From a virus, in the IMG/VR virus record IMGVR_UViG_3300047496_000083, positions 1 to 42,049 of that record: DNA of 42,049 nt. One strand, given 5' to 3'. Each line of letters opens with the position of its first letter. The first letter of the stretch is position 1. A program made the translations under genes and the position numbers. The notes beneath the pieces were generated by a model that was given only the letters and a program-made list of their open reading frames with translations, was not told where the DNA came from and ran no database searches. Below, piece by piece: positions 1 through 42,049 of the stretch.

Positions 1-99
1 CTTAATGTGTTCTTCAATGAAATCAATCTCACGAGTCCACTCTCTTGAATCGGTTGATAGTGTATGTGCGATTCTATCGACTTTGAGTTGAGTGAGTGC
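1..99. repeat. Terminal direct repeat, copy 1 (identical to 41951..42049)
   Basis: Base-by-base comparison of the first 99 nt with the last 99 nt found them identical. Confidence 0.95.
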
Positions 100-2086: not shown

Positions 2087-2165
2087 TACTTTACCCACAT
2101 CTCCTATCTTTCACTCGCTTTTATTAGTTATATTCAGTCAAAAACCGCCCCAAAACTCCAAACCC

Positions 2166-2414
2166 CTACCTAAGTCCAGCGATAGCACTAGACAACAGGT
2201 CTGCTATTAACGGCAAAACGCCAATTAATGCTAAGAACTGTACGATACAAGCAGTAACCAATAGGCTAATCTTGTGTCGTTTAACTAAATGCCAAACTAT
2301 CGCAAAGCTAGACATCTGATTAATATCAGTACTCTTAAGCTTTTTCTCGATACGCTTTACCTGAGCCGCCTTTTTGATTCGGTTGCTAGATATAGCTGTT
2401 TCTTCGTATTGCAT
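2166..2414 (-). CDS. Hypothetical membrane protein
   Basis: ORF track; C-terminal hydrophobic stretch LLVTACIVQFLALIGVLPLIADLL. Confidence 0.45.
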   Translation of the reverse strand: MQYEETAISSNRIKKAAQVKRIEKKLKSTDINQMSSFAIVWHLVKRHKISLLVTACIVQFLALIGVLPLIADLLSSAIAGLR

Positions 2415-2565
2415 ATATTATCCTTTCTTTTGCTATTTAATTTGGTGTTTGGGCCAGCCTTAGCAAAAAGGGCTTAACTCAGCCAAACCGGCCCAAACTT
2501 GAACCTACAATGTCGATTAGGGAATTGTAGGCCCACCCAAAAGCCTATTAAAGGCTCTCAGGCGG

Positions 2566-2721
2566 TTATTTACTCGTATCGCACTCGTACCAGAACACTG
2601 TACCAGTTGGATTGCTTAACTTCTCACAACCGGCTTTATAGTCTCTAACACCTACCCACTGACCAAACAAAACGCCAATGAACAGGGCTAGAACGATTAC
2701 TAATACTTTAGTGTTTAACAT
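2566..2721 (-). CDS. Small secreted or membrane protein (51 aa, below the track cutoff)
   Basis: Hand translation: MLNTKVLVIVLALFIGVLFGQWVGVRDYKAGCEKLSNPTGTVFWYECDTSK, with an N-terminal signal/TM-like segment. Confidence 0.35.
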   Translation of the reverse strand: MLNTKVLVIVLALFIGVLFGQWVGVRDYKAGCEKLSNPTGTVFWYECDTSK

Positions 2722-2939
2722 TATTGCTCCTTCTTAAATATCTTGAGAGTGTTTGGGCTAATTGACTTGTGGCGGTTGCTGTCCGTTATGGGATAAGCTG
2801 TTGCCGGTCTTTCGCCCCACCCTGCTTACTGATGTACTGCCAACCGATTGATTCAATTGACTAACTACAGTGTAGCAGTGTTACGCTTATATGTCAACAC
2901 TAAGTTACGCTAAAACTGTGTATAACTCGCCACCTAAGG

Positions 2940-3389: not shown

Positions 3390-3620
3390 AACACCAATAT
3401 TGCCCAATTCTAAGCCTGTATAACACACTTAACAGATACAAATACCCATACATACACCCAATACACGTAACACCAACGTCGCACATTACACATTGTACGA
3501 CCCACTCCACCCCTGTTATTACATACACCCTAACACCTATACACTACATATAGCGTATACATATACATCACACCATCCTTGATACATATATATACCTACA
3601 TCACCACTACTTTTAACAGG
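3390..3620. other. G-depleted A/C/T-rich tract with ACATA/CACAC motifs (candidate pac or other cis site)
   Basis: I count 10 G in the 180 nt at 3421-3600. ACATACACCC occurs at 3450-3459 and 3521-3530. A G-rich patch follows immediately at 3618-3657. Confidence 0.8.
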
Positions 3621-3731
3621 GGTAGATGGGGCCGGTGCGTTGCCCAAGGCCACCGGTATTTTTATGAGGGCCAGCGGAGCGACTGCATGTTTAACAAGAG
3701 GCGTAACTATTGACCTATTATGGAATGAGCA

Positions 3732-4003: not shown

Positions 4004-4018
4004 TATACTTCCTTAATG
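4004..4018 (+). promoter_or_regulatory. TATACT, 6-nt spacer, then the terL ATG
   Basis: TAGTATACT, tcctta, ATG at 4016. The string TAGTATAC recurs before the ATG at 18449. Confidence 0.3.
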
Positions 4019-5713
4019 GACCAGGCAGCGCAACAGGCACAACAAGAAGCCCAAATAAAAAAAATTCGTTTAATAGCGCAGGACTTTTATCGTTACTGTG
4101 AGTTGAATCTCAAGATTAGGACTAAGGATGGGCGGGTTACGACTCTTAAACCCAATTATATCCAACGTATTCTCGTAGACCGGGTACTCGATAAACTGGA
4201 CAAGGAAGAACCGATTAGATTCGTTATCTTAAAGGCTCGTCAGCAGGGCGTTTCCACCATCGTAGAAGCCCTCATTTATTGGTGGACTGTGACTCATAAA
4301 GGCCAGCAAAGCAAAATAATCGCCCATAACACCGATACGTCTGAATACCTTTACTCGATGTTCCGAACCTTTTATGACAATTCTAACCCGATCTTCCAAC
4401 CAACAACGAAATACAATACCAGAAACGATCTGACCTTCGATAACGAAGAAGCACCGCATAAAGGACTTAAGAGCCAAATCGACACCGCTACGGCCGAGAA
4501 CTCCGGAACCGGAAGAGGCCAAACCGTCCAATGGTTACATGCTTCCGAGGTCGCCCTTTGGCCAAAAGGACAGGAGATCGTGGCCGGGTTGATGCAAGCC
4601 GTCCCTCTTCTGCCTAACACCGCTATCTTTCTAGAGAGCACTGCTAATGGAATAGGCGATTATTTCCATACCACGTGGCAGGCCGCCCAACGAGGTGAAT
4701 CTACCTTTGAACCACTCTTTTTCCCTTGGAAGATACACGAAGAATACACCATTAAACCGCCCGTTCATTTTAGACTCACGACAGAAGAAAAGAAGATTAG
4801 GAAGGAACACCAATTAACCTACGGACAAATCTACTGGCGCAGAAAAAAATTACTTGAGTTTACCGGCGATGAGAAGAGGTTTTATCAGGAATACCCCCTA
4901 ACTGATACTGAAGCTTTCCTCGCCTCCGGTAGTCCGAGATTTGACGTTCAAAAACTAGCTGAAATGGAAGAAAAATGCTACGACGCCCAAACCTTTGAAC
5001 TAATCGAGCGAACTGATGAAAAGACTCGTTTACCTATAATAGTACCTAAACAAATGGACGCCCCCTTAAAAGTCTGGGTTACTCCCCAAGATGGAAGGGA
5101 ATACGTTATAGGGGCGGATGTGGCTGAGGGAATCGCTGAAGATTACTCCTGCGCCACCGTAATGGACAGACTCACACATCAGACCGTCGCACGATTTAGG
5201 GGTGATATGGAACCGTCAGACTTCGGAGAATACCTATCTTTACTCGGTAGGTGGTACAACAACGCCCTTATAGGAGCGGAAATTAACAACCACGGCCTGA
5301 CGACTGTTCAGAGACTGAGAGATGTCGGTTATGAGAACCTTTATAGGCGGGAGATGGGAATTGACGAACGCTACGAGGAATACACAAGCAAACTAGGCTG
5401 GCGGACGGACGTACGAACCAAGCCTTTAATGATTGACGGACTAAGCGAGGCTATAAGCACAGGTCAGATCACCGATTACGACCGAATATTTATTAGAGAG
5501 TGCATGACCTACGTTAGGGATGAACGAGGCCGGACTAACGCCCAAATCGGCCAGCACGACGATACTGTTATAAGTACGGCTATTTGTCTGCAATTATTCG
5601 AGTGGAATCCCGTTACGGCTAAGAAACTATCCATTAAAAGCACCTATCCACAGAGGTACTTGCGACAACATCGCAAAAATAAGGCTTTGTTAAAAAAGCG
5701 TGTTTCTGCCTGA
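4016..5713 (+). CDS. terL: Terminase large subunit
   Basis: 565 aa. Walker-A-like ILKARQQGVST, a later acidic nuclease-type region (GADVAEG…DDTV), and position between terS and portal. Confidence 0.85.
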   Translation: MDQAAQQAQQEAQIKKIRLIAQDFYRYCELNLKIRTKDGRVTTLKPNYIQRILVDRVLDKLDKEEPIRFVILKARQQGVSTIVEALIYWWTVTHKGQQSKIIAHNTDTSEYLYSMFRTFYDNSNPIFQPTTKYNTRNDLTFDNEEAPHKGLKSQIDTATAENSGTGRGQTVQWLHASEVALWPKGQEIVAGLMQAVPLLPNTAIFLESTANGIGDYFHTTWQAAQRGESTFEPLFFPWKIHEEYTIKPPVHFRLTTEEKKIRKEHQLTYGQIYWRRKKLLEFTGDEKRFYQEYPLTDTEAFLASGSPRFDVQKLAEMEEKCYDAQTFELIERTDEKTRLPIIVPKQMDAPLKVWVTPQDGREYVIGADVAEGIAEDYSCATVMDRLTHQTVARFRGDMEPSDFGEYLSLLGRWYNNALIGAEINNHGLTTVQRLRDVGYENLYRREMGIDERYEEYTSKLGWRTDVRTKPLMIDGLSEAISTGQITDYDRIFIRECMTYVRDERGRTNAQIGQHDDTVISTAICLQLFEWNPVTAKKLSIKSTYPQRYLRQHRKNKALLKKRVSA

Positions 5714-36660: not shown

Positions 36661-37303
36661 AGTTTGGGAACTCAGCCGTGGTGGTGGTGCGTTCATCTGT
36701 GGTAAAGGGTCCGTTAGCCCCGTTCATCTCCCAAACAACAAAAGAACCATCGGGGTTTAAACTCTCTACCAAAGCTACATGACCTAGATAACTATCTCCT
36801 GATGTCTGGGCAATACTTCCAACTGTAGGGGTGTTTGTAACTTCAATACCTTGTGCCTGAGCGTTAACCGCCCATTCATTAGCATTACCTGACCACGTTA
36901 TGGGCAGTCTGGAGGCTATACCCCACGTACATTGGCCTGGAACAAATGAATTGGGCAGATTATCGCTAAGTGCATATAAAATCGTCTGGGCGGTCTCTAC
37001 GTTGCTTATAACGGGCATTGTAAGTTGCGGAAGGGGTTGTATTTGGGCGGGGATTGTTCTGGGGTCGGCGTAAGTTATCTTGTTGGTGGCGGGGAAGAAC
37101 GATAGTAGGACGGAGATGTATAAAAGAACAACCGCCCCTACGATAAAGAGGCGATTGCTTTGCTGGATAGTGCGAACTCCTACCAGCTTGGATAATAACT
37201 GCTTATAAAAGGGTTTGGCAATACCAAAGTCTACAGTATAGGGGCGTCCCCTCCCAATCTTGGGTGAACGTAGTTGGCTTAATTGTATTATCTGATGTTT
37301 CAA
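36647..37303 (-). CDS. Membrane-anchored CHAP-domain peptidoglycan hydrolase
   Basis: TM segment LFIVGAVVLLYISVLLSFF, then PGQCTWGIASR (Cys) and GHVALVE (His), typical of CHAP. Confidence 0.7.
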   Translation of the reverse strand: MKHQIIQLSQLRSPKIGRGRPYTVDFGIAKPFYKQLLSKLVGVRTIQQSNRLFIVGAVVLLYISVLLSFFPATNKITYADPRTIPAQIQPLPQLTMPVISNVETAQTILYALSDNLPNSFVPGQCTWGIASRLPITWSGNANEWAVNAQAQGIEVTNTPTVGSIAQTSGDSYLGHVALVESLNPDGSFVVWEMNGANGPFTTDERTTTTAEFPNFILF

Positions 37304-37554
37304 ATCGGTGGTAAAAGGTCAGGACAATCCTACTTACAAGGATTAACTTTACCACAGGCATTAGTTGGGCGGTCAAGGACTTGATTTTCTAAACATTAAG
37401 GGATACAGTAGTAATAACTGAAATGGTGAGCTAAAACCAAAGTAGGTTGTCGAGTTGCAAATCGGCTAAACATCAAGCCAACGAAAAACCCCCCGTGTTA
37501 GCGGAGGGCTGGTGAGCTAATATCTAGCTTAAGCCAGCGAACTAGGAATGTCAA

Positions 37555-37866
37555 GTGCAACCAGTATCAAATATCCTACCAATTGGACCAATAGGAAATA
37601 AAAATTTAAACCCAATTGGTCCAATTGGAGAGACCGAGCCCCGGGCTTCAAGACGAGCTGTAGACCATCTCCTTTATGAGTACCGTGAGCTTATCGAGCC
37701 ACAATACGTTAAGTGGTTCGCCAAGCGTTTTTATGTGTTGCCGTACGATACTATTCATCGGGCGGCCAGCGAAGCCAAGCAAGACGGTAATAATCCTAAG
37801 CGTTTGTTCTCGTTCATAATAAATAAACACTACAATGCCAAAAGTACCGGTTTACAACCTAACTAA
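37555..37866 (+). CDS. Hypothetical DNA-binding or replication-organiser-like protein (GTG start; boundaries uncertain)
   Basis: ORF track; its 5' part carries the CCAATTGG repeat pairs. No internal Met. Confidence 0.35.
   Translation: MQPVSNILPIGPIGNKNLNPIGPIGETEPRASRRAVDHLLYEYRELIEPQYVKWFAKRFYVLPYDTIHRAASEAKQDGNNPKRLFSFIINKHYNAKSTGLQPN
37579..37629. repeat. Two 18-bp direct repeats, each made of two CCAATWGG palindromic half-sites
   Basis: CCAATTGGACCAATAGGA (37579-37596) and CCAATTGGTCCAATTGGA (37612-37629), 16/18 identical, separated by an AT-rich 15-mer. Confidence 0.85.
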
Positions 37867-39054: not shown

Positions 39055-39268
39055 CTATGCTCTCCTTTAACTTATATTGCACTGTCTTACCGACTCTACG
39101 GTCTAATTTACCCTCATTGGCGAGTTCCCTTGATCTCCGCCCCACTGTAGACGCTGTTGTATACCAAGCAGGAGCTTCAGCCTCTAAGCGGTAGATCGGC
39201 GTCCAGTCCCGCCCCCTCATAAACCCGAGGATTTTATGCTTGGTGGTTTGCTTATATGGATTTGCCAT
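39041..39268 (-). CDS. Winged-helix DNA-binding protein
   Basis: …ILGFMRGRDWTPIYRL…TVGRRSRELANEGKLDRR…YKL pattern. Confidence 0.45.
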   Translation of the reverse strand: MANPYKQTTKHKILGFMRGRDWTPIYRLEAEAPAWYTTASTVGRRSRELANEGKLDRRVGKTVQYKLKESIDATI

Positions 39269-40022
39269 GCTTATCCTTTGCTAGATCAAGCGAACAACAT
39301 CCAGCGTCCGTCCTGTAGTCGCACCACTGAAACACCGGCCCCCAAAGTGGCGATGACTCATCACACAAACACTCCGGCGGTTCTTGTGCCTCCCACGCTT
39401 CGTTAAGCAGGGTTAGCCTGCGTTTTACCCACTCAATGTACTTCGGCTCGACTTTCGTCTGATATACGCACAGCAAGCCTGAGAGTGAGGCGTAAACAAA
39501 GTCTATGTTCTCAACAGTTTCGCCCAGAAGCAGAGCATAGGCGTGGTTTTGTAGGACGTGGTGAATGTAAGGCTCGGGCATAGGTTCATAGACGGGGCGG
39601 TTCCACTTGTTCTTTTCGCCCGAATCCTGCTTAAGGGTTGTCTCGCTGGTCAGCGGGCCTTTATAGAACGCCCAATCACTAACTGACTTGACTTCTATTA
39701 GAGTCTTACCGTCTTTAGACAGGTTGTCGTACTCGCCCGTTAAACTCCACTTGTCGGAGGTCAGCCGGACGTTAGCCGAGGTCTCGCCCCAAACCTTATC
39801 TATATGCGGTCTTAACTGTTCTTCCAGCTTATGCCCCGCCCCCCACCTAATTACTTTAGCTCCTGAAGGCTTTGTAAGCCCCGCCACGCCCAGTCTATGA
39901 AAATAATGGGCACGGGGACAGATCGAGATAGACGAGGCGTGCCACAGCTTGTAAACACGTTCTTCGTTCTCCTCCGCAATAGATTGATACAGCTTAACGC
40001 TTAAATCTTTAGATAAAGACAT
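39252..40022 (-). CDS. PD-(D/E)XK Cas4/RecB-like exonuclease with Cys cluster (ATG at 40022 after AGGAG preferred)
   Basis: ICPRAHYF (N-terminal Cys), EYD…LIEVKS (D…ExK), QNHAY (QxxxY), and C-terminal CLCDE…WCDY…GCC cysteines. Confidence 0.65.
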   Translation of the reverse strand: MSLSKDLSVKLYQSIAEENEERVYKLWHASSISICPRAHYFHRLGVAGLTKPSGAKVIRWGAGHKLEEQLRPHIDKVWGETSANVRLTSDKWSLTGEYDNLSKDGKTLIEVKSVSDWAFYKGPLTSETTLKQDSGEKNKWNRPVYEPMPEPYIHHVLQNHAYALLLGETVENIDFVYASLSGLLCVYQTKVEPKYIEWVKRRLTLLNEAWEAQEPPECLCDESSPLWGPVFQWCDYRTDAGCCSLDLAKDKHGKSI

Positions 40023-40085
40023 CAAACTCCTTATCCGGCCACAAACCACCCAATACTAGACCAACTACTACAGCAAGGTAGTAAA

Positions 40086-40304: not shown

Positions 40305-40450
40305 TCCGCCACATCCCCTAGCTTTTCTACTGGGTCTACATAAGTAGGGGCGTATTCCGCCAACCACTCAGCTTCACTCATCTGCCCCTCGTCTACCAAC
40401 TCCAAAGCATCTAAGGCTTCTTCCGATAATGATTGTTTTGTTCTGCTCAT
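40301..40450 (-). CDS. 49-aa acidic micro-ORF (below the track cutoff)
   Basis: Hand translation: MSRTKQSLSEEALDALELVDEGQMSEAEWLAEYAPTYVDPVEKLGDVAE. Confidence 0.35.
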   Translation of the reverse strand: MSRTKQSLSEEALDALELVDEGQMSEAEWLAEYAPTYVDPVEKLGDVAE

Positions 40451-40492
40451 ATGTAATGCCTTTCAAATCTCCTACCTAAGAGGTTAGCACAG

Positions 40493-40696
40493 TTACGGTT
40501 GAGTGTCAAGCTTGCCCCTACTTTGGGCGCGGCGAACATGGGCTTTCACACGGTTATGCTTAGCATCAAACCAAGTTTCACATTCGCCGCCAATATAAAT
40601 CGAAGCTTCTAAACCATCATCTAATAAAACCGCCACTACACAGTAATCATCGAAGTATTGGGTCTGGTGCTTGAGCACACGGATTATTTTCGCCAC
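40493..40696 (-). CDS. Hypothetical protein
   Basis: ORF track. Confidence 0.45.
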   Translation of the reverse strand: MAKIIRVLKHQTQYFDDYCVVAVLLDDGLEASIYIGGECETWFDAKHNRVKAHVRRAQSRGKLDTQP

Positions 40697-40713
40697 TTTA
40701 TCAGCTCCTATAT

Positions 40714-40863
40714 TTAATTAGTGGGCGGATTTTTAGGTTTGTATTTAATTAAAGTTATTTCTTTCTTGGCTTGATTCACCCCAACATACTCAACCTCGTA
40801 ATTAGGGATGTGGCGGCCAAGTAAACGCTTTAATTCGGGTAAAATCCAGTCTGTGTCGCTCAT
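40714..40863 (-). CDS. 49-aa ORF (below the track cutoff), first gene downstream of the large non-coding region
   Basis: Hand translation: MSDTDWILPELKRLLGRHIPNYEVEYVGVNQAKKEITLIKYKPKNPPTN; SD GGAGG upstream. Confidence 0.35.
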   Translation of the reverse strand: MSDTDWILPELKRLLGRHIPNYEVEYVGVNQAKKEITLIKYKPKNPPTN

Positions 40864-40979
40864 AAAACCTCCTTACATTTATTTAATTGGCGGATATATC
40901 ATATGCACCGGCCATTACATATCATTCTTATCTGTTAATTGCTAAATAATATGTATCAATTTGCATATGACGGATGTAT

Positions 40980-41445
40980 TTAGAGAGACAGATTGCCGGG
41001 CGGTAGACTATTGATTCCAACTCTTAGAACGTCTTCTATTTCCCTACCGCCCAGCGAACTATCTCTCTTTTAGGTGCAGATTTGGATGGGCGAGGATTTC
41101 CCTTAGTCACCTCGCATGGCCGTCGCAGTGCGTCCCCGGTGTTACCACTAAGGGCGTCCCGTAGGACGTAGAAACCGCACTCGCATACTTTTGTACCATG
41201 AACCACTTGCCTCAAGGCTTAAGGCGGTACAGGACTTTTGGCGCCACCATCCAGAACTACACCTAATATGTTAATGAACTTGGAGCACTTCAAAGATTTT
41301 CTTTAGAGTGCTCTGGTAGCGGCAGAAGCGTCTATTTAATTTGTTGTTCCTCCCCCGACTTAGGGAATCTTCTGCGCTAATGACCAGTTAGAGGCTGGAT
41401 TTCGCATGTTCTGAGCTAGCAAAATCTAATCAGCCTCAGTTCTAG
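40980..41445. ncRNA. Candidate large structured RNA, or a structured origin (family and strand unknown)
   Basis: No ORF of 60 aa or more on either strand across 40864-41500. At least ten helices found by eye; coordinates are given in the finding. Confidence 0.4.
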
Positions 41446-41500
41446 GCGTTAGTTATAGGCTTCTCCAACATTACCTTCCAGATTTCATCATCAGTCATAT

Positions 41501-41791
41501 TTACTCCTTTGCTTTTAACTCTTTGATTCGGTCTTCAACACGCTTCTCGCTAACGTATACGAAGTTTTTACCTAACGAATCTGTTTTGATTACATATCCA
41601 CTCGGGGGTAATACTAAATTTTCCAACTCGCTTACAACGGCTCTGATTATTAGTTGCTGGATTTTAGCTTTTGCCTCGGATTGAGCCTTTAGGTAGTATG
41701 GCAAGGTAGCATGGTCGCCCGGCTTGATTACGCTATCTATGAAGTCATCCAGCTCCTGTGAGGTAGGCTGTTTATTGTCTGGGGCGGTCAT
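41501..41791 (-). CDS. Hypothetical early protein
   Basis: ORF track. Confidence 0.5.
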   Translation of the reverse strand: MTAPDNKQPTSQELDDFIDSVIKPGDHATLPYYLKAQSEAKAKIQQLIIRAVVSELENLVLPPSGYVIKTDSLGKNFVYVSEKRVEDRIKELKAKE

Positions 41792-41927
41792 ATCTAAATC
41801 CTAAAAATATTACGTTTATCGTTAATGTAAAGCCCCAAAAAACCAAGTCGCTAACATCACCCCACACTCGACTACCTATAAACATGAACGTCAGAAACAA
41901 AAGCCAGAATATATCAAACTTGCTCAT
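41772..41927 (-). CDS. 51-aa two-TM protein (below the track cutoff)
   Basis: Hand translation: MSKFDIFWLLFLTFMFIGSRVWGDVSDLVFWGFTLTINVIFLGFRYDRPRQ. ATGA overlap with the upstream stop. Confidence 0.35.
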   Translation of the reverse strand: MSKFDIFWLLFLTFMFIGSRVWGDVSDLVFWGFTLTINVIFLGFRYDRPRQ

Positions 41928-42049
41928 CCCTTTAACCTTTGCTGATATTGCTTAATGTGTTCTTCAATGAAATCAATCTCACGAGTCCACTCTCTTGAAT
42001 CGGTTGATAGTGTATGTGCGATTCTATCGACTTTGAGTTGAGTGAGTGC
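41924..42049 (-). CDS. 3' part of the junction-spanning ORF (same gene as 1..276; 41951-42049 duplicates 1-99)
   Basis: In-frame continuation …EEHIKQYQQRLKG, with the TGA at 41926-41924. Confidence 0.5.
   Translation of the reverse strand, partial: ALTQLKVDRIAHTLSTDSREWTREIDFIEEHIKQYQQRLKG
41951..42049. repeat. Terminal direct repeat, copy 2 (identical to 1..99)
   Basis: Same 99-nt string as the window start; most simply a circular-assembly overlap. Confidence 0.95.

What the first reader, a model, noticed from the sequence alone, without database searches (positions are those of the whole stretch)
40864..41500. ~640-nt ORF-free region packed with helices: candidate large structured RNA or structured replication origin
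This is the longest non-coding stretch in a very tightly packed genome. It has two parts.

AT-rich part (40870-40980): carries a 9-bp inverted repeat, TCATATGCA at 40899-40907 and TGCATATGA at 40962-40970.

GC-richer part: contains many complementary segments.
- 40982-40988 / 41062-41068
- 40995-41006 / 41044-41055 (11 of 12 pairs)
- 41025-41029 / 41034-41038
- 41090-41095 / 41110-41115
- 41127-41132 / 41176-41181, enclosing 41155-41159 / 41164-41168
- 41192-41197 / 41226-41231
- 41283-41295 / 41301-41313
- 41318-41328 / 41369-41378 (one bulge)
- 41391-41402 / 41422-41437

GCGTCCC occurs twice (41130-41136 and 41154-41160). Both copies can pair with GGACG at 41164-41168, so alternative folds are possible.

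The nested, multi-junction layout over about 460 nt looks like the size class of large ornate phage-associated RNAs such as ROOL, GOLLD and HEARO. I cannot assign it to any family by eye. A structured origin is an equally live option, since no replication initiator is recognisable.
Basis: seen in the sequence. Interest (0 to 1): 0.8.

Follow-up and report, generated by a model that had tools for sequence, protein, structure and literature searches.

The report
Shuffled stem-loop cassettes in phage early operon
The longest gene-free stretch of this uncultured soil phage is probably not one big ornate RNA or a replication origin, but a patchwork of four separate long hairpins, two of which are swapped as ready-made cassettes with another phage.

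Summary
40864-41500 is ORF-free under any stop-codon reassignment, every listed pairing exists, and the region folds far better than shuffles (z about -7 on both strands). It ranks first or second in the genome for excess stability.

The signal comes from four long inverted repeats:
- hairpin A, 40982-41068
- the closing stem of domain B, 41070-89/41247-66
- hairpin C, 41282-41314
- hairpin D1, 41391-41437

The multi-junction interior of B and the apex of A fold no better than shuffles.

No Rfam family matches, including ROOL, GOLLD, HEARO, OLE, introns, tRNA and tmRNA. No homologue of the whole unit turned up in about 750 kb of related phage loci or in the collection scans.

One IMG/VR contig (L073) carries A (100% identical) and D1 (99%). 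There they flank unrelated cargo: an 83-nt hairpin domain, a tRNA-like element and a second A with a different apex. The 17-aa mini-ORF spans a homology breakpoint.

Best reading: a mosaic, hyperplastic untranslated spacer of the early (minus-strand) operon, built from portable stem-loop cassettes. These probably act as RNA processing or stabilising hairpins and as recombination junctions, like T4-type PeSLs and T7 RNase III sites. An origin is not supported: there are no iterons or DnaA boxes, and the region is not conserved in syntenic relatives.

The parts
40864..41500 (-). Whole ORF-free spacer of the minus-strand early operon. It lies between an ORFan of 96 aa (41501-41791) and a 49-aa gene (40714-40863).
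41444..41497 (-). 17-aa mini-ORF MTDDEIWKVMLEKPITNA. It has an AAGGAG Shine-Dalgarno sequence that overlaps the end of the upstream gene. It spans the homology breakpoint with L073 (41461/41462), so it is likely the truncated 5' end of a lost gene.
   Evidence: no homologue found
41382..41461 (-). Portable segment S1 containing hairpin D1 (41391-41437: 7 bp + 8 bp, 13-nt loop). It is 98.75% identical to L073 202-281.
   Evidence: (z -4.0)
41315..41387 (-). Remainder of domain D (helices 41318-28/41369-78 and 41351-55/41362-66). Not above chance and absent from L073.
   Evidence: z -1.3/-0.9
41282..41314 (-). Hairpin C: 13-14 bp with a 3-nt loop. Window-specific.
   Evidence: I5; z -5.1/-4.8
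41070..41266 (-). Domain B. A closing stem of about 20 bp with a 3x3 internal loop (41070-89/41247-66) encloses a 157-nt interior. The interior folds into a predicted junction with C(UACG)G and G(GUAA)C loops on the minus strand. Its stability is at chance level. Absent from L073.
   Evidence: (I2)
40980..41074 (-). Portable segment S2, which is hairpin A (40982-41068): 10 bp, a 3x3 internal loop, 13 bp, and a 35-nt apex. It is 100% identical to L073 365-459. A second copy in L073 (549-640) keeps the 25-nt arms but has a different apex.
   Evidence: I1; z -6.8/-5.2
40864..40979 (-). AT-rich spacer (25-35% GC). It holds the 9-bp inverted repeat 40899-907/40962-970, a weak promoter-like site at 40925-40898, and the AAGGAGG ribosome-binding site of the 49-aa gene. 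In L073 its 40895-40979 portion is replaced by 390 nt.
   Evidence: (z -1.4)
40874..40895 (-). Copy 1 of the direct repeat ATCCGCC[A/C]A..TAATTAAATA..GGAG, just upstream of the 49-aa gene.
   Evidence: (D2)
40709..40730 (-). Copy 2 of the same repeat, upstream of the 67-aa gene. The two copies bracket the 49-aa gene as a cassette shared at 99% with L073 850-1045. An independent Logan contig ends at 40728, about 30 nt into the shared segment.

Best explanation
The region is a mosaic (hyperplastic) untranslated spacer inside the minus-strand early operon of an uncultured podovirus-like phage. It is made of independent long stem-loop cassettes: D1, C, the B stem and A.

Shown:
- The stems are real and statistically exceptional.
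- Two of them (A and D1) are portable modules shared almost base-for-base with another phage, where they flank different cargo.
- The sequence between them is interchangeable.
- A repeated motif plus ribosome-binding site brackets the neighbouring 49-aa gene as a shared cassette.

Inferred:
- The spacer is read through as part of the early polycistronic RNA, since no intrinsic terminators were found.
- On that RNA the 20-25-bp stems with internal loops act as double-stranded processing or stabilising signals. These would be RNase III-type cleavage sites or barriers to 3' exonucleases and Rho. They would separate cistrons and, in L073, release a tRNA-like RNA.
- At the DNA level the repeated stems and motifs supply the short homologies at which early-gene cassettes are gained, lost and swapped.
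- Successive swaps and deletions left stacked hairpins and a truncated gene start, and so a 640-nt stretch without genes.
For: Structure:
- z about -7 for the whole element.
- Per-module z-scores place the signal in four stems only.
- A is the top local inverted repeat in the genome.

Modularity:
- A is 100% and D1 98.75% identical to L073, and the 49-aa cassette is 99% identical.
- The segments in between are non-homologous.
- A occurs twice in L073, flanking a tRNA-like element.
- The rest of the L073 locus shows no nucleotide similarity to the window.

Population variation: Logan contig L072, from another sample, stops at 40728, about 30 nt into the shared segment.

Hypervariability: early-gene neighbours are ORFans or are not shared with phages whose terminase is 76-85% identical or whose Cas4-like gene is 70-72% identical. 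L059 has an unstructured gap at the syntenic site.

Sense-strand hints:
- A and D1 are more stable on the minus strand (-42.8 vs -34.4 and -19.7 vs -17.0 kcal/mol).
- UACG and GUAA tetraloops appear only on the minus strand.
- The one arm substitution in A' (A to G) gives G.U on the sense strand.
- The analogous L055 element has 22 G.U pairs on the sense strand against 6 on the antisense strand.

Other points:
- No terminator-like sites were found.
- Further strong sense-strand hairpins lie in another early intergenic gap, 2446-2535.

Precedents:
- Five RNase III signals lie in the T7 early polycistronic RNA, the ideal substrate is about 22 bp, and internal loops give single-strand cleavage (PMC3867540).
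Against: - No transcript data, so strand and processing are inferred.
- G.U counts in the window element are symmetric (13 vs 14), and DNA-parameter folding is just as significant. RNA-level and DNA-level action are therefore not separated.
- No sigma-70-like promoter is part of the cassettes, unlike PeSLs.
- Only one homologous locus exists and it is nearly identical in the shared parts, so there is no covariation test.
- B and C are unique to the window and could still be a genuine small RNA gene.
- Both contigs come from metagenome assemblies that share sub-k-mer identical segments. The order of modules could in principle be affected by the assembly path.
Confidence: 0.5

Rival explanations
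1. A single new large structured non-coding RNA of about 540 nt, or at least a roughly 200-nt RNA equal to domain B flanked by processing hairpins. It would be expressed early from the minus strand and act in trans, for example as a decoy, scaffold or anti-defence RNA.
For: - Overall z about -7, with a possible closing helix that joins both ends.
- UNCG and GNRA tetraloops in B on the minus strand.
- A possible loop-loop pairing between 41098-41108 and 41357-41367 (I13).
- A non-homologous but equally sized (545 nt) and equally structured (z -7.5) ORF-free element in the early region of L055, with strong sense-strand G.U bias.
- In L073 the same neighbourhood carries a tRNA-like RNA.
Against: - B interior z is about 0 and the remainder of D is at chance.
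- About one chance match of the size of the closing helix, and about one of the size of the loop-loop pairing, is expected in the 900-nt and 546-nt stretches considered (my estimate).
- The unit is not conserved: L073 keeps A and D1 but lacks B, C and the closing arms.
- No hit of covariance model R1 (domain B) in 0.5 Mb of related loci.
- No Rfam hit.
Confidence: 0.15
2. A structured DNA element: a replication origin or another protein- or cruciform-based site, with the AT-rich 40870-40980 part as the unwinding element and the inverted repeats as binding or extrusion sites.
For: - The stems are equally significant with DNA parameters (z -6.65) and on both strands.
- The adjacent 60-nt stretch is 25% GC.
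- No replication initiator or polymerase is recognisable anywhere in the genome, so host-dependent initiation is plausible.
Against: - No iterons. The only exact repeated 9-mer is TATTTAATT, and the direct repeats are weak.
- No DnaA-box-like site within the region.
- The region is replaced or absent in syntenic relatives, which is unexpected for an essential origin unless it is swapped together with an unrecognised initiator.
- GC skew gives no signal.
Confidence: 0.1
3. Selfish small palindromic DNA elements (MITE- or Correia-like) and recombination debris with no function for the phage. Hairpin A would be an 87-92-bp element with 25-bp terminal inverted repeats that has inserted, duplicated and accumulated in a tolerant spacer.
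For: - A has 25-nt arms conserved between copies while the interior differs (A versus A').
- There are two copies within 180 nt in L073.
- It is nearly identical between otherwise dissimilar phages.
- The mini-ORF looks like a truncated gene.
Against: - Only one copy in the window and none elsewhere in 73 loci.
- No hit to a 21-mer from domain B in 185,579 genomes, and none to further 18-19-mers in IMG/VR apart from L073.
- No clear target-site duplication: the flanks are AAA/AAA in the window, AAA/AAG and TTG/AAA in L073.
- No transposase is known for it.
Confidence: 0.15
4. A self-splicing intron (group I or II), or a decayed tRNA/tmRNA island.
For: - A short ORF runs into the structured region, as phage intron 5' exons often do.
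- L073 has a tRNA-like element here.
- HNH_3 endonuclease genes sit next to the structured gaps in L055 and L059.
Against: - No intron, tRNA or tmRNA model matches, even at E<=10 or with relaxed ARAGORN settings.
- The downstream gene has its own ribosome-binding site and start codon, and a stop codon lies 3 codons upstream of that start.
- The 11-nt identity with the L073 tRNA-like D-loop is at chance level.
Confidence: 0.03

Closest known systems
PeSL (promoter-early stem-loop) cassettes of T4-type phage hyperplastic regions (PMC2839356, PMC4122927)
   Same: - Short, repeated, intergenic regulatory cassettes that contain stable stem-loops, next to ORFan early genes.
- They lie exactly at the boundaries of insertions, deletions and replacements between related phages.
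- The cassette ends with the Shine-Dalgarno sequence and start codon of the next gene, as does the ATCCGCC...TAATTAAATA...GGAG repeat here.
   Different: - No sigma-70 consensus promoter is embedded.
- The stems are far longer (13-25 bp, up to 87-197 nt per module).
- Several are stacked with no genes between them.
- Few copies per genome, against about 50 in phi1 and RB49.
- The phage is podovirus-like and unrelated to T4.
RNase III processing signals of the T7 early polycistronic RNA (PMC3867540; Dunn and Studier 1983, as cited there)
   Same: Hairpins of about two helical turns interrupted by an internal loop, placed between cistrons of an early operon. A is 10 bp + 3x3 loop + 13 bp. The B stem is 10 bp + 3x3 loop + 11 bp.
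   Different: - Cleavage is untested.
- The host, and therefore its RNase III specificity, is unknown.
- Four stems are clustered in one gene-free gap rather than one per gene junction.
- There is no sequence similarity.
Large ornate phage-associated RNAs: ROOL, GOLLD, HEARO (and OLE, raiA)
   Same: Similar size class (about 540 nt), phage context, and many predicted helices. A relative carries a tRNA-like element next door, and GOLLD and ROOL often neighbour tRNAs (my own knowledge).
   Different: - No covariance-model match.
- No conserved core.
- The multi-junction interior is not above chance.
- The parts are individually exchangeable.
Small palindromic mobile repeats (Correia/NEMIS elements, MITEs); comparison from my own knowledge
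   Same: Arms of about 25 bp in inverted orientation around a variable interior, total length about 90 nt. They would form RNase III-sensitive hairpins when transcribed.
   Different: No dispersed multicopy distribution, no clear target-site duplication, and found only at one operon position.
Structured origins (filamentous-phage intergenic region, plasmid single-strand origins); comparison from my own knowledge
   Same: A gene-free region of several hundred nt made of consecutive hairpins next to an AT-rich stretch.
   Different: - Those belong to ssDNA or rolling-circle replicons and are conserved.
- This is a 42-kb dsDNA tailed phage.
- The region is hypervariable and lacks iterons.

Membership tests
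ROOL / GOLLD / HEARO / OLE / raiA (Rfam large RNAs) | Match to the family covariance model | tested here: not met
   cmscan of the whole window at gathering score gave 0 hits. For 40600-41800 at E<=10 there were only four chance-level hits to unrelated families.
ROOL / GOLLD / HEARO / OLE / raiA (Rfam large RNAs) | A multi-stem architecture conserved among homologues, with covariation | tested here: not met
   The only homologue (L073) keeps A and D1 but replaces B, C and the rest of D. Model R1 of domain B finds nothing in 0.5 Mb. The shared parts are 99-100% identical, so covariation itself is untestable.
PeSL-like regulatory cassettes | A stable stem-loop in an intergenic cassette that is repeated in the variable early region | tested here: met
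   A, C, D1 and the B stem are individually significant. A is repeated in L073. The motif plus ribosome-binding site is repeated at 40709-30 and 40874-95.
PeSL-like regulatory cassettes | Located at the breakpoints of indels and replacements between related phages | tested here: met
   Homology with L073 switches on and off at the module borders 41461/62, 41381/82, 41074/75, 40979/80 and 40894/95. A Logan contig breaks at 40728.
PeSL-like regulatory cassettes | An embedded sigma-70-type early promoter | tested here: not met
   The whole 40400-42049 scan gave only two 9-of-12 promoter-like sites (one, 40925-40898, inside the region), fewer than in shuffles (2 vs 3.6). The repeated motif has no good -35/-10 pair on inspection. 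The host's promoter type is unknown.
PeSL-like regulatory cassettes | The stem-loop acts as a terminator or attenuator | not testable with these tools
   No stem is followed by a U-tract on the minus strand. A reporter or RNA-seq assay is needed.
RNase III processing signal | A double-stranded stem of about 20-22 bp, often with an internal loop, within a polycistronic transcript | tested here: met
   A is 10 bp + 3x3 loop + 13 bp. The B stem is 10 bp + 3x3 loop + 11 bp. Criterion from PMC3867540.
RNase III processing signal | Site-specific cleavage by the host enzyme | not testable with these tools
   Needs 5'/3'-end mapping in infected cells or an in vitro cleavage assay.
Replication origin | Iterons or initiator boxes (for example DnaA boxes) next to an AT-rich unwinding element | tested here: not met
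   An AT-rich stretch is present (25% GC at 40924-40983). There are no repeated binding sites and no DnaA-box-like site (at most 1 mismatch) in the region.
Replication origin | Conservation of the element, with its initiator, among related replicons | tested here: not met
   Absent or replaced in L059, L055, L057, L058, L030 and L004, and only fragments remain in L073.
MITE / Correia-like palindromic element | Terminal inverted repeats around a variable interior | tested here: met
   The 25-nt arms are conserved between A and A' while the apex differs.
MITE / Correia-like palindromic element | Multiple dispersed copies and target-site duplications | tested here: not met
   One copy in the window, two adjacent copies in L073, none in the other 72 loci. 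The flanks are not duplicated consistently.
Group I / group II intron | A conserved catalytic core (model match) and a continuous exon reading frame | tested here: not met
   No Rfam hit at E<=10. The downstream gene has its own ribosome-binding site and ATG, preceded by an in-frame stop.
tRNA / tmRNA | A cloverleaf or tRNA-like domain detected by ARAGORN or Rfam | tested here: not met
   0 genes in the window and none even at -ps80. Only L073 460-536 has a tRNA-like fold: a relaxed ARAGORN call and a partial T-arm hit at E 0.008.

The most novel reading that the evidence does not exclude
Phages of this uncultured soil clade (possibly infecting Saccharimonadales) carry in their early operons fast-evolving, non-homologous, roughly 545-nt gene-free RNA islands. 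The window element (40965-41500) and L055:4657-5201 would be two examples. These would be expressed as large structured RNAs or as sets of small stable RNAs released by flanking double-stranded processing hairpins. They would be swapped between co-infecting phages as cassettes, forming a new accessory RNA compartment of phage genomes, perhaps with anti-defence or decoy roles.
Probability: 0.12. Interest if true: 0.7.

Novelty: new variant of a known kind. Interest (0 to 1): 0.3.

Why it matters
If the reading is right, the finding is a clear example outside the T4 group of how short structured cassettes drive mosaicism of phage early regions. It also shows why a high folding z-score over several hundred nucleotides should not be read as one large RNA. 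Decomposing the signal and adding one homologue changed the interpretation here.

It offers concrete, testable hairpins (A and D1) that are exchanged nearly unchanged between otherwise dissimilar phages in the same habitat.

The minority reading, a new class of cassette-borne early RNAs, would be of real interest for phage-host conflict. It needs transcript data.

Tried and rejected
Known RNA families:
- Rfam at gathering and permissive thresholds on the window, on L055 and on L073: nothing relevant.
- tRNA/tmRNA search, including relaxed ARAGORN settings: nothing in the window.

Homologues through flanking proteins:
- The 96-aa neighbour is an ORFan.
- Exact look-ups of the neighbouring proteins failed.
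- Relatives found through the terminase and the Cas4-like gene gave 73 loci and about 750 kb. Among these, blastn, nhmmer, tblastx and a covariance model of domain B found no copy of the unit.

Sequence searches:
- Phage and plasmid databases: no match.
- Exact-word scans: two 18-mers in IMG/VR gave only chance hits. A 21-mer in 185,579 genomes gave nothing. A 19-mer of the L055 element gave nothing. Only the 19-mer from hairpin A hit a real relative.

Other tests:
- Alternative genetic codes: rejected.
- Strand assignment by G.U asymmetry: symmetric in the window, so inconclusive.
- Intron hypothesis, from exon frames: rejected.
- tRNA remnant in domain B: chance level.
- Truncated-gene hypothesis for the mini-ORF, by short tblastn: no support found, so it remains an inference from the breakpoint.
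- Genome-wide sliding z-scores: two scripts timed out. Coarser versions ran.
- A crude ORF-gap finder was unreliable, because the early genes are very small and spurious ORFs mask the gaps.
Full report
CONTEXT

The window is a complete circular assembly, with a 99-nt terminal overlap. It is an uncultured tailed phage of about 41.95 kb.
- It has a large terminase (4016-5713), an SU10-type portal in relatives, and capsid and tail genes on the + strand.
- A block of small, mostly ORFan genes lies on the - strand (about 2720 down to 1, then 42049 down to 36647).
- No cultured relative exists. The best phage-database terminase hit is 44% identical.
- A Cas4-like nuclease gene (39252-40049) has one homologue on a Candidatus Saccharimonadales MAG contig. 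This is a weak hint about the host.
- The finding lies inside the minus-strand early block, between a 96-aa ORFan (41501-41791) and a 49-aa gene (40714-40863).

CHECKING THE OBSERVATION

The stretch is truly non-coding.
- Only one ORF of at least 40 aa lies wholly inside, a 59-aa TTG ORF with no support; a 45-aa + strand ORF also overlaps the left edge.
- Reading through TGA or TAG does not open a frame. Reading through TAA gives 129 stop-free codons but needs 4 recoded stops.
- No translated similarity to any fetched locus.

Two longer-range helices were missed:
- 41070-89/41247-66, which closes a 197-nt domain (B).
- 40965-76/41489-500, which would close the whole 536-nt element.

Folding is far better than dinucleotide shuffles.
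- z -6.65 and -5.46 for the 637 nt.
- z -7.2 and -7.3 for 40960-41505.
- z -6.65 with DNA energy parameters.
- Against all 540-nt windows of the genome, corrected for GC, it is the top locus on the + strand and the second on the - strand, at about -3.2 sd.
- Hairpin A is the best local inverted repeat in the genome.

WHERE THE SIGNAL COMES FROM

Folding each module alone with 150 shuffles shows that four stems carry the excess stability:

| Module | z (- strand) | z (+ strand) |
|---|---|---|
| Hairpin A | -6.8 | -5.2 |
| Hairpin C | -5.1 | -4.8 |
| Hairpin D1 | -4.1 | -2.1 |
| Domain B, whole | -2.9 | -3.6 |
| B interior (157 nt) | -0.15 | -0.9 |
| A apex | -0.4 | 0.0 |
| Rest of D | -1.3 | -0.9 |

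- The effect for B is due to its 20-bp closing stem. The interior holds the nested junction and the duplicated GCGTCCC.
- The AT-rich part with the 9-bp inverted repeat has z -1.4.
- By my estimate, about one chance match of the size of the 12-nt closing helix, and about one of the size of the candidate loop-loop pairing (41098-108/41357-67), is expected in a stretch of that length.

So the ornate multi-junction picture is what any sequence of this composition would give. What is special is a row of long, nearly perfect hairpins.

KNOWN FAMILIES

- No Rfam family reaches its gathering score anywhere in the window.
- At E<=10 only four chance-level hits appear in 40600-41800.
- ARAGORN finds no tRNA or tmRNA, even with relaxed thresholds.
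- The intron idea fails on exon logic. The downstream gene has its own AAGGAGG ribosome-binding site and ATG, and an in-frame stop lies three codons upstream.

LOOKING FOR RELATIVES

The early region is hypervariable.
- Phages whose terminase is 76-85% identical share almost none of the early genes.
- The same holds for phages whose Cas4-like nuclease is 70-72% identical.
- The 96-aa neighbour has no homologue in 5.8 billion proteins.
- In the closest syntenic relative (L059), the gap upstream of the homologue of the 67-aa gene is 289 nt and unstructured (z -0.55).

Across 73 loci and about 750 kb, no copy of the unit was found by:
- blastn, nhmmer and tblastx;
- a covariance model of domain B (R1).

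The phage and plasmid databases and several exact-word scans of IMG/VR and of 185,579 genomes were also negative.

THE ONE HOMOLOGUE AND WHAT IT SHOWS

A 19-mer from hairpin A hit IMG/VR contig 3300047496_000036 (L073). Its + strand corresponds to the window's - strand.

| L073 | Window | Relationship |
|---|---|---|
| 1-158 | 42049-41889 | 92.5% identical |
| 159-201 (43 nt) | 41888-41462 (427 nt) | no similarity; the window segment includes the 96-aa ORFan |
| 202-281 | 41461-41382 (D1) | 98.75% identical |
| 282-364 (83 nt, domain X) | 41381-41075 (307 nt: rest of D, C, B) | unrelated |
| 365-459 | 41074-40980 (hairpin A) | 100% identical |
| 460-849 | 40979-40895 (85 nt, AT-rich) | unrelated |
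| 850-1045 | 40894-40699 | 99% identical |

- Domain X is an unrelated hairpin domain of its own (z -3.8).
- L073 460-849 holds three things. The first is a tRNA-like element. The second is a second hairpin A' with the same 25-nt arms but a different apex. The third is a 64-aa ORF.
- The tRNA-like element has a 7-bp acceptor stem, a canonical GGTTCGATTCC T-arm and an aberrant 12-nt anticodon loop.
- The last shared segment is the 49-aa gene bracketed by two copies of the repeat ATCCGCC[A/C]A..TAATTAAATA..GGAG.
- Beyond position 1045 the two phages share no nucleotide similarity.
- L073's own spacer is just as structured (z -6.9).

An independent Logan assembly from another sample ends at window 40728, about 30 nt into the shared cassette. 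I read this as what a de Bruijn graph does where co-occurring variants diverge.

The 17-aa mini-ORF has a perfect Shine-Dalgarno sequence and straddles the 41461/41462 breakpoint. It therefore looks like the 5' stump of a gene cut off by recombination. This is an inference; no full-length homologue was found.

INTERPRETATION

The element is not inherited as a unit. Hairpins A and D1 are portable cassettes. What lies between and beside them is interchangeable cargo, and the region sits in a block where genes come and go.

The closest described behaviour is that of PeSLs. These are repeated promoter/stem-loop cassettes that flank ORFans in T4-type hyperplastic regions and mediate modular shuffling by recombination (PMC2839356, PMC4122927).

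The stems themselves resemble the RNase III processing signals of the T7 early polycistronic RNA (PMC3867540).
- A is 10 bp + 3x3 internal loop + 13 bp.
- The B stem is 10 bp + 3x3 loop + 11 bp.
- In L073 the 3' arm of A and the 5' arm of A' can also pair around the tRNA-like element. This is how rRNA and some tRNA precursors are bracketed for processing (my own knowledge).

I therefore propose three things.
- The spacer is transcribed with the early operon. No terminator-like sites were found.
- Its long stems serve as processing or stabilising double-stranded signals.
- Their repetition provides the homology for cassette exchange, and stacking after gene loss explains the long ORF-free stretch.

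STRAND, AND RNA VERSUS DNA

Evidence for sense-strand (minus) RNA is suggestive only.
- A and D1 are more stable on the minus strand.
- UACG and GUAA tetraloops occur only on that strand.
- The single arm substitution in A' creates a G.U pair on that strand.
- The analogous element in L055 has 22 sense-strand G.U pairs against 6 on the antisense strand.

Against this, G.U counts in the window element are symmetric (13 vs 14), and DNA folding is equally significant.

The origin rival is weakened by several points.
- There are no iterons or DnaA-like boxes.
- The region is not conserved in syntenic relatives.
- It sits in the middle of a hypervariable ORFan block.
It is not excluded.

A RECURRING THEME

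L055 is a phage sharing the Cas4-like module. It has a non-homologous, 545-nt, ORF-free run of seven hairpins in its early region, after an HNH_3 endonuclease gene (z -7.5). It has no Rfam hit. The window has further strong sense-strand hairpins in another early gap, 2446-2535. Hairpin-rich untranslated spacers thus seem typical of these early operons. This keeps alive a minority reading: that they are cassette-borne RNA genes rather than punctuation.

VERDICT

- The interpretation as one large ornate RNA or an origin is not supported.
- The best explanation is a mosaic array of portable stem-loop cassettes (confidence about 0.5).
- Rivals: a genuine new RNA (0.15), selfish palindromic elements or debris (0.15), an origin or DNA site (0.1), an intron or tRNA relic (0.03).
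- Novelty: a new variant of a known kind. Interest is moderate to low (0.3), unless transcript data reveal discrete stable RNAs.

Noticed in passing
whole window (e.g. 40722-40728, 41047-41053, 36868-37372): The heptamer TGGGCGG occurs 22 times (10 on +, 12 on -) against 3.4 expected from dinucleotide shuffles, and none of 100 shuffles reaches 22. It also sits in the arm of hairpin A and in the repeat upstream of gene 40696. Similar GGGCGG-containing words recur in the L055 and L059 spacers. It might be a Chi-like or protein-binding word, or a codon-usage effect.
   Followed up: partly
window 3440-3640, especially 3475-3519 and 3498-3518/3614-3634: The gap between the small-terminase gene and the next ORF is C/A-rich and almost free of G. 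It contains a 40-44-nt block that is 86-90% identical in L024, L026, L048 and L030, whose terminases are only 43-81% identical. It also holds a 21-nt inverted repeat. This is a candidate packaging (pac/cos) site or conserved late promoter.
   Followed up: partly
L055:4657-5201: A 545-nt ORF-free run of seven hairpins (z -7.5 sense, -8.4 antisense; 22 vs 6 G.U pairs) lies directly after an HNH_3 endonuclease gene, in the early region of a phage sharing the Cas4-like module. It has no sequence similarity to the window element and no Rfam hit.
   Followed up: partly
L073:460-536: A tRNA-like element with a 7-bp acceptor stem, a canonical T arm and a 12-nt anticodon loop. ARAGORN calls it only at relaxed threshold, with a 4-base anticodon. 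It is flanked on both sides by copies of hairpin A, whose inner arms can pair around it.
   Followed up: partly
window 40709-40730 and 40874-40895; L072 end at 40728: Two copies of ATCCGCC[A/C]A..TAATTAAATA..GGAG bracket the 49-aa gene. The whole cassette is 99% identical in L073. An independent Logan contig from ERR9963794 stops about 30 nt into it, which suggests co-occurring recombinant variants.
   Followed up: partly
window 37579-37628 (inside ORF 37555-37866) and 37200-37800: A 24-nt near-perfect palindrome encodes the repeat PIGPIG...PIGPIG. The surrounding 250-nt window has z -4.9 and -4.0, making it the second most structured locus of the genome. The ORF has homologues in L067 and L070, so it is coding.
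   Followed up: no
window 2100-2760, especially 2446-2535 and 2274-2330: This is the most stable 540-nt window on the minus strand (-3.9 sd). Two strong sense-strand hairpins lie in the 152-nt gap between two early genes. A 57-nt stretch is 89% identical to L059, although the encoded proteins are only about 50% identical.
   Followed up: no
L063 (JBBSJF010000088.1): The only hit for the Cas4-like nuclease family among 185,579 species genomes is a 3.6-kb contig binned into a Candidatus Saccharimonadales MAG. This may be a host clue or a binning artefact.
   Followed up: no
window 1-99 and 41951-42049; L073 1-99: The window's 99-nt terminal overlap (circular assembly) is 100% identical to the first 99 nt of L073. 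I infer that both contigs were cut by the assembler at a word shared by two co-occurring phages.
   Followed up: partly
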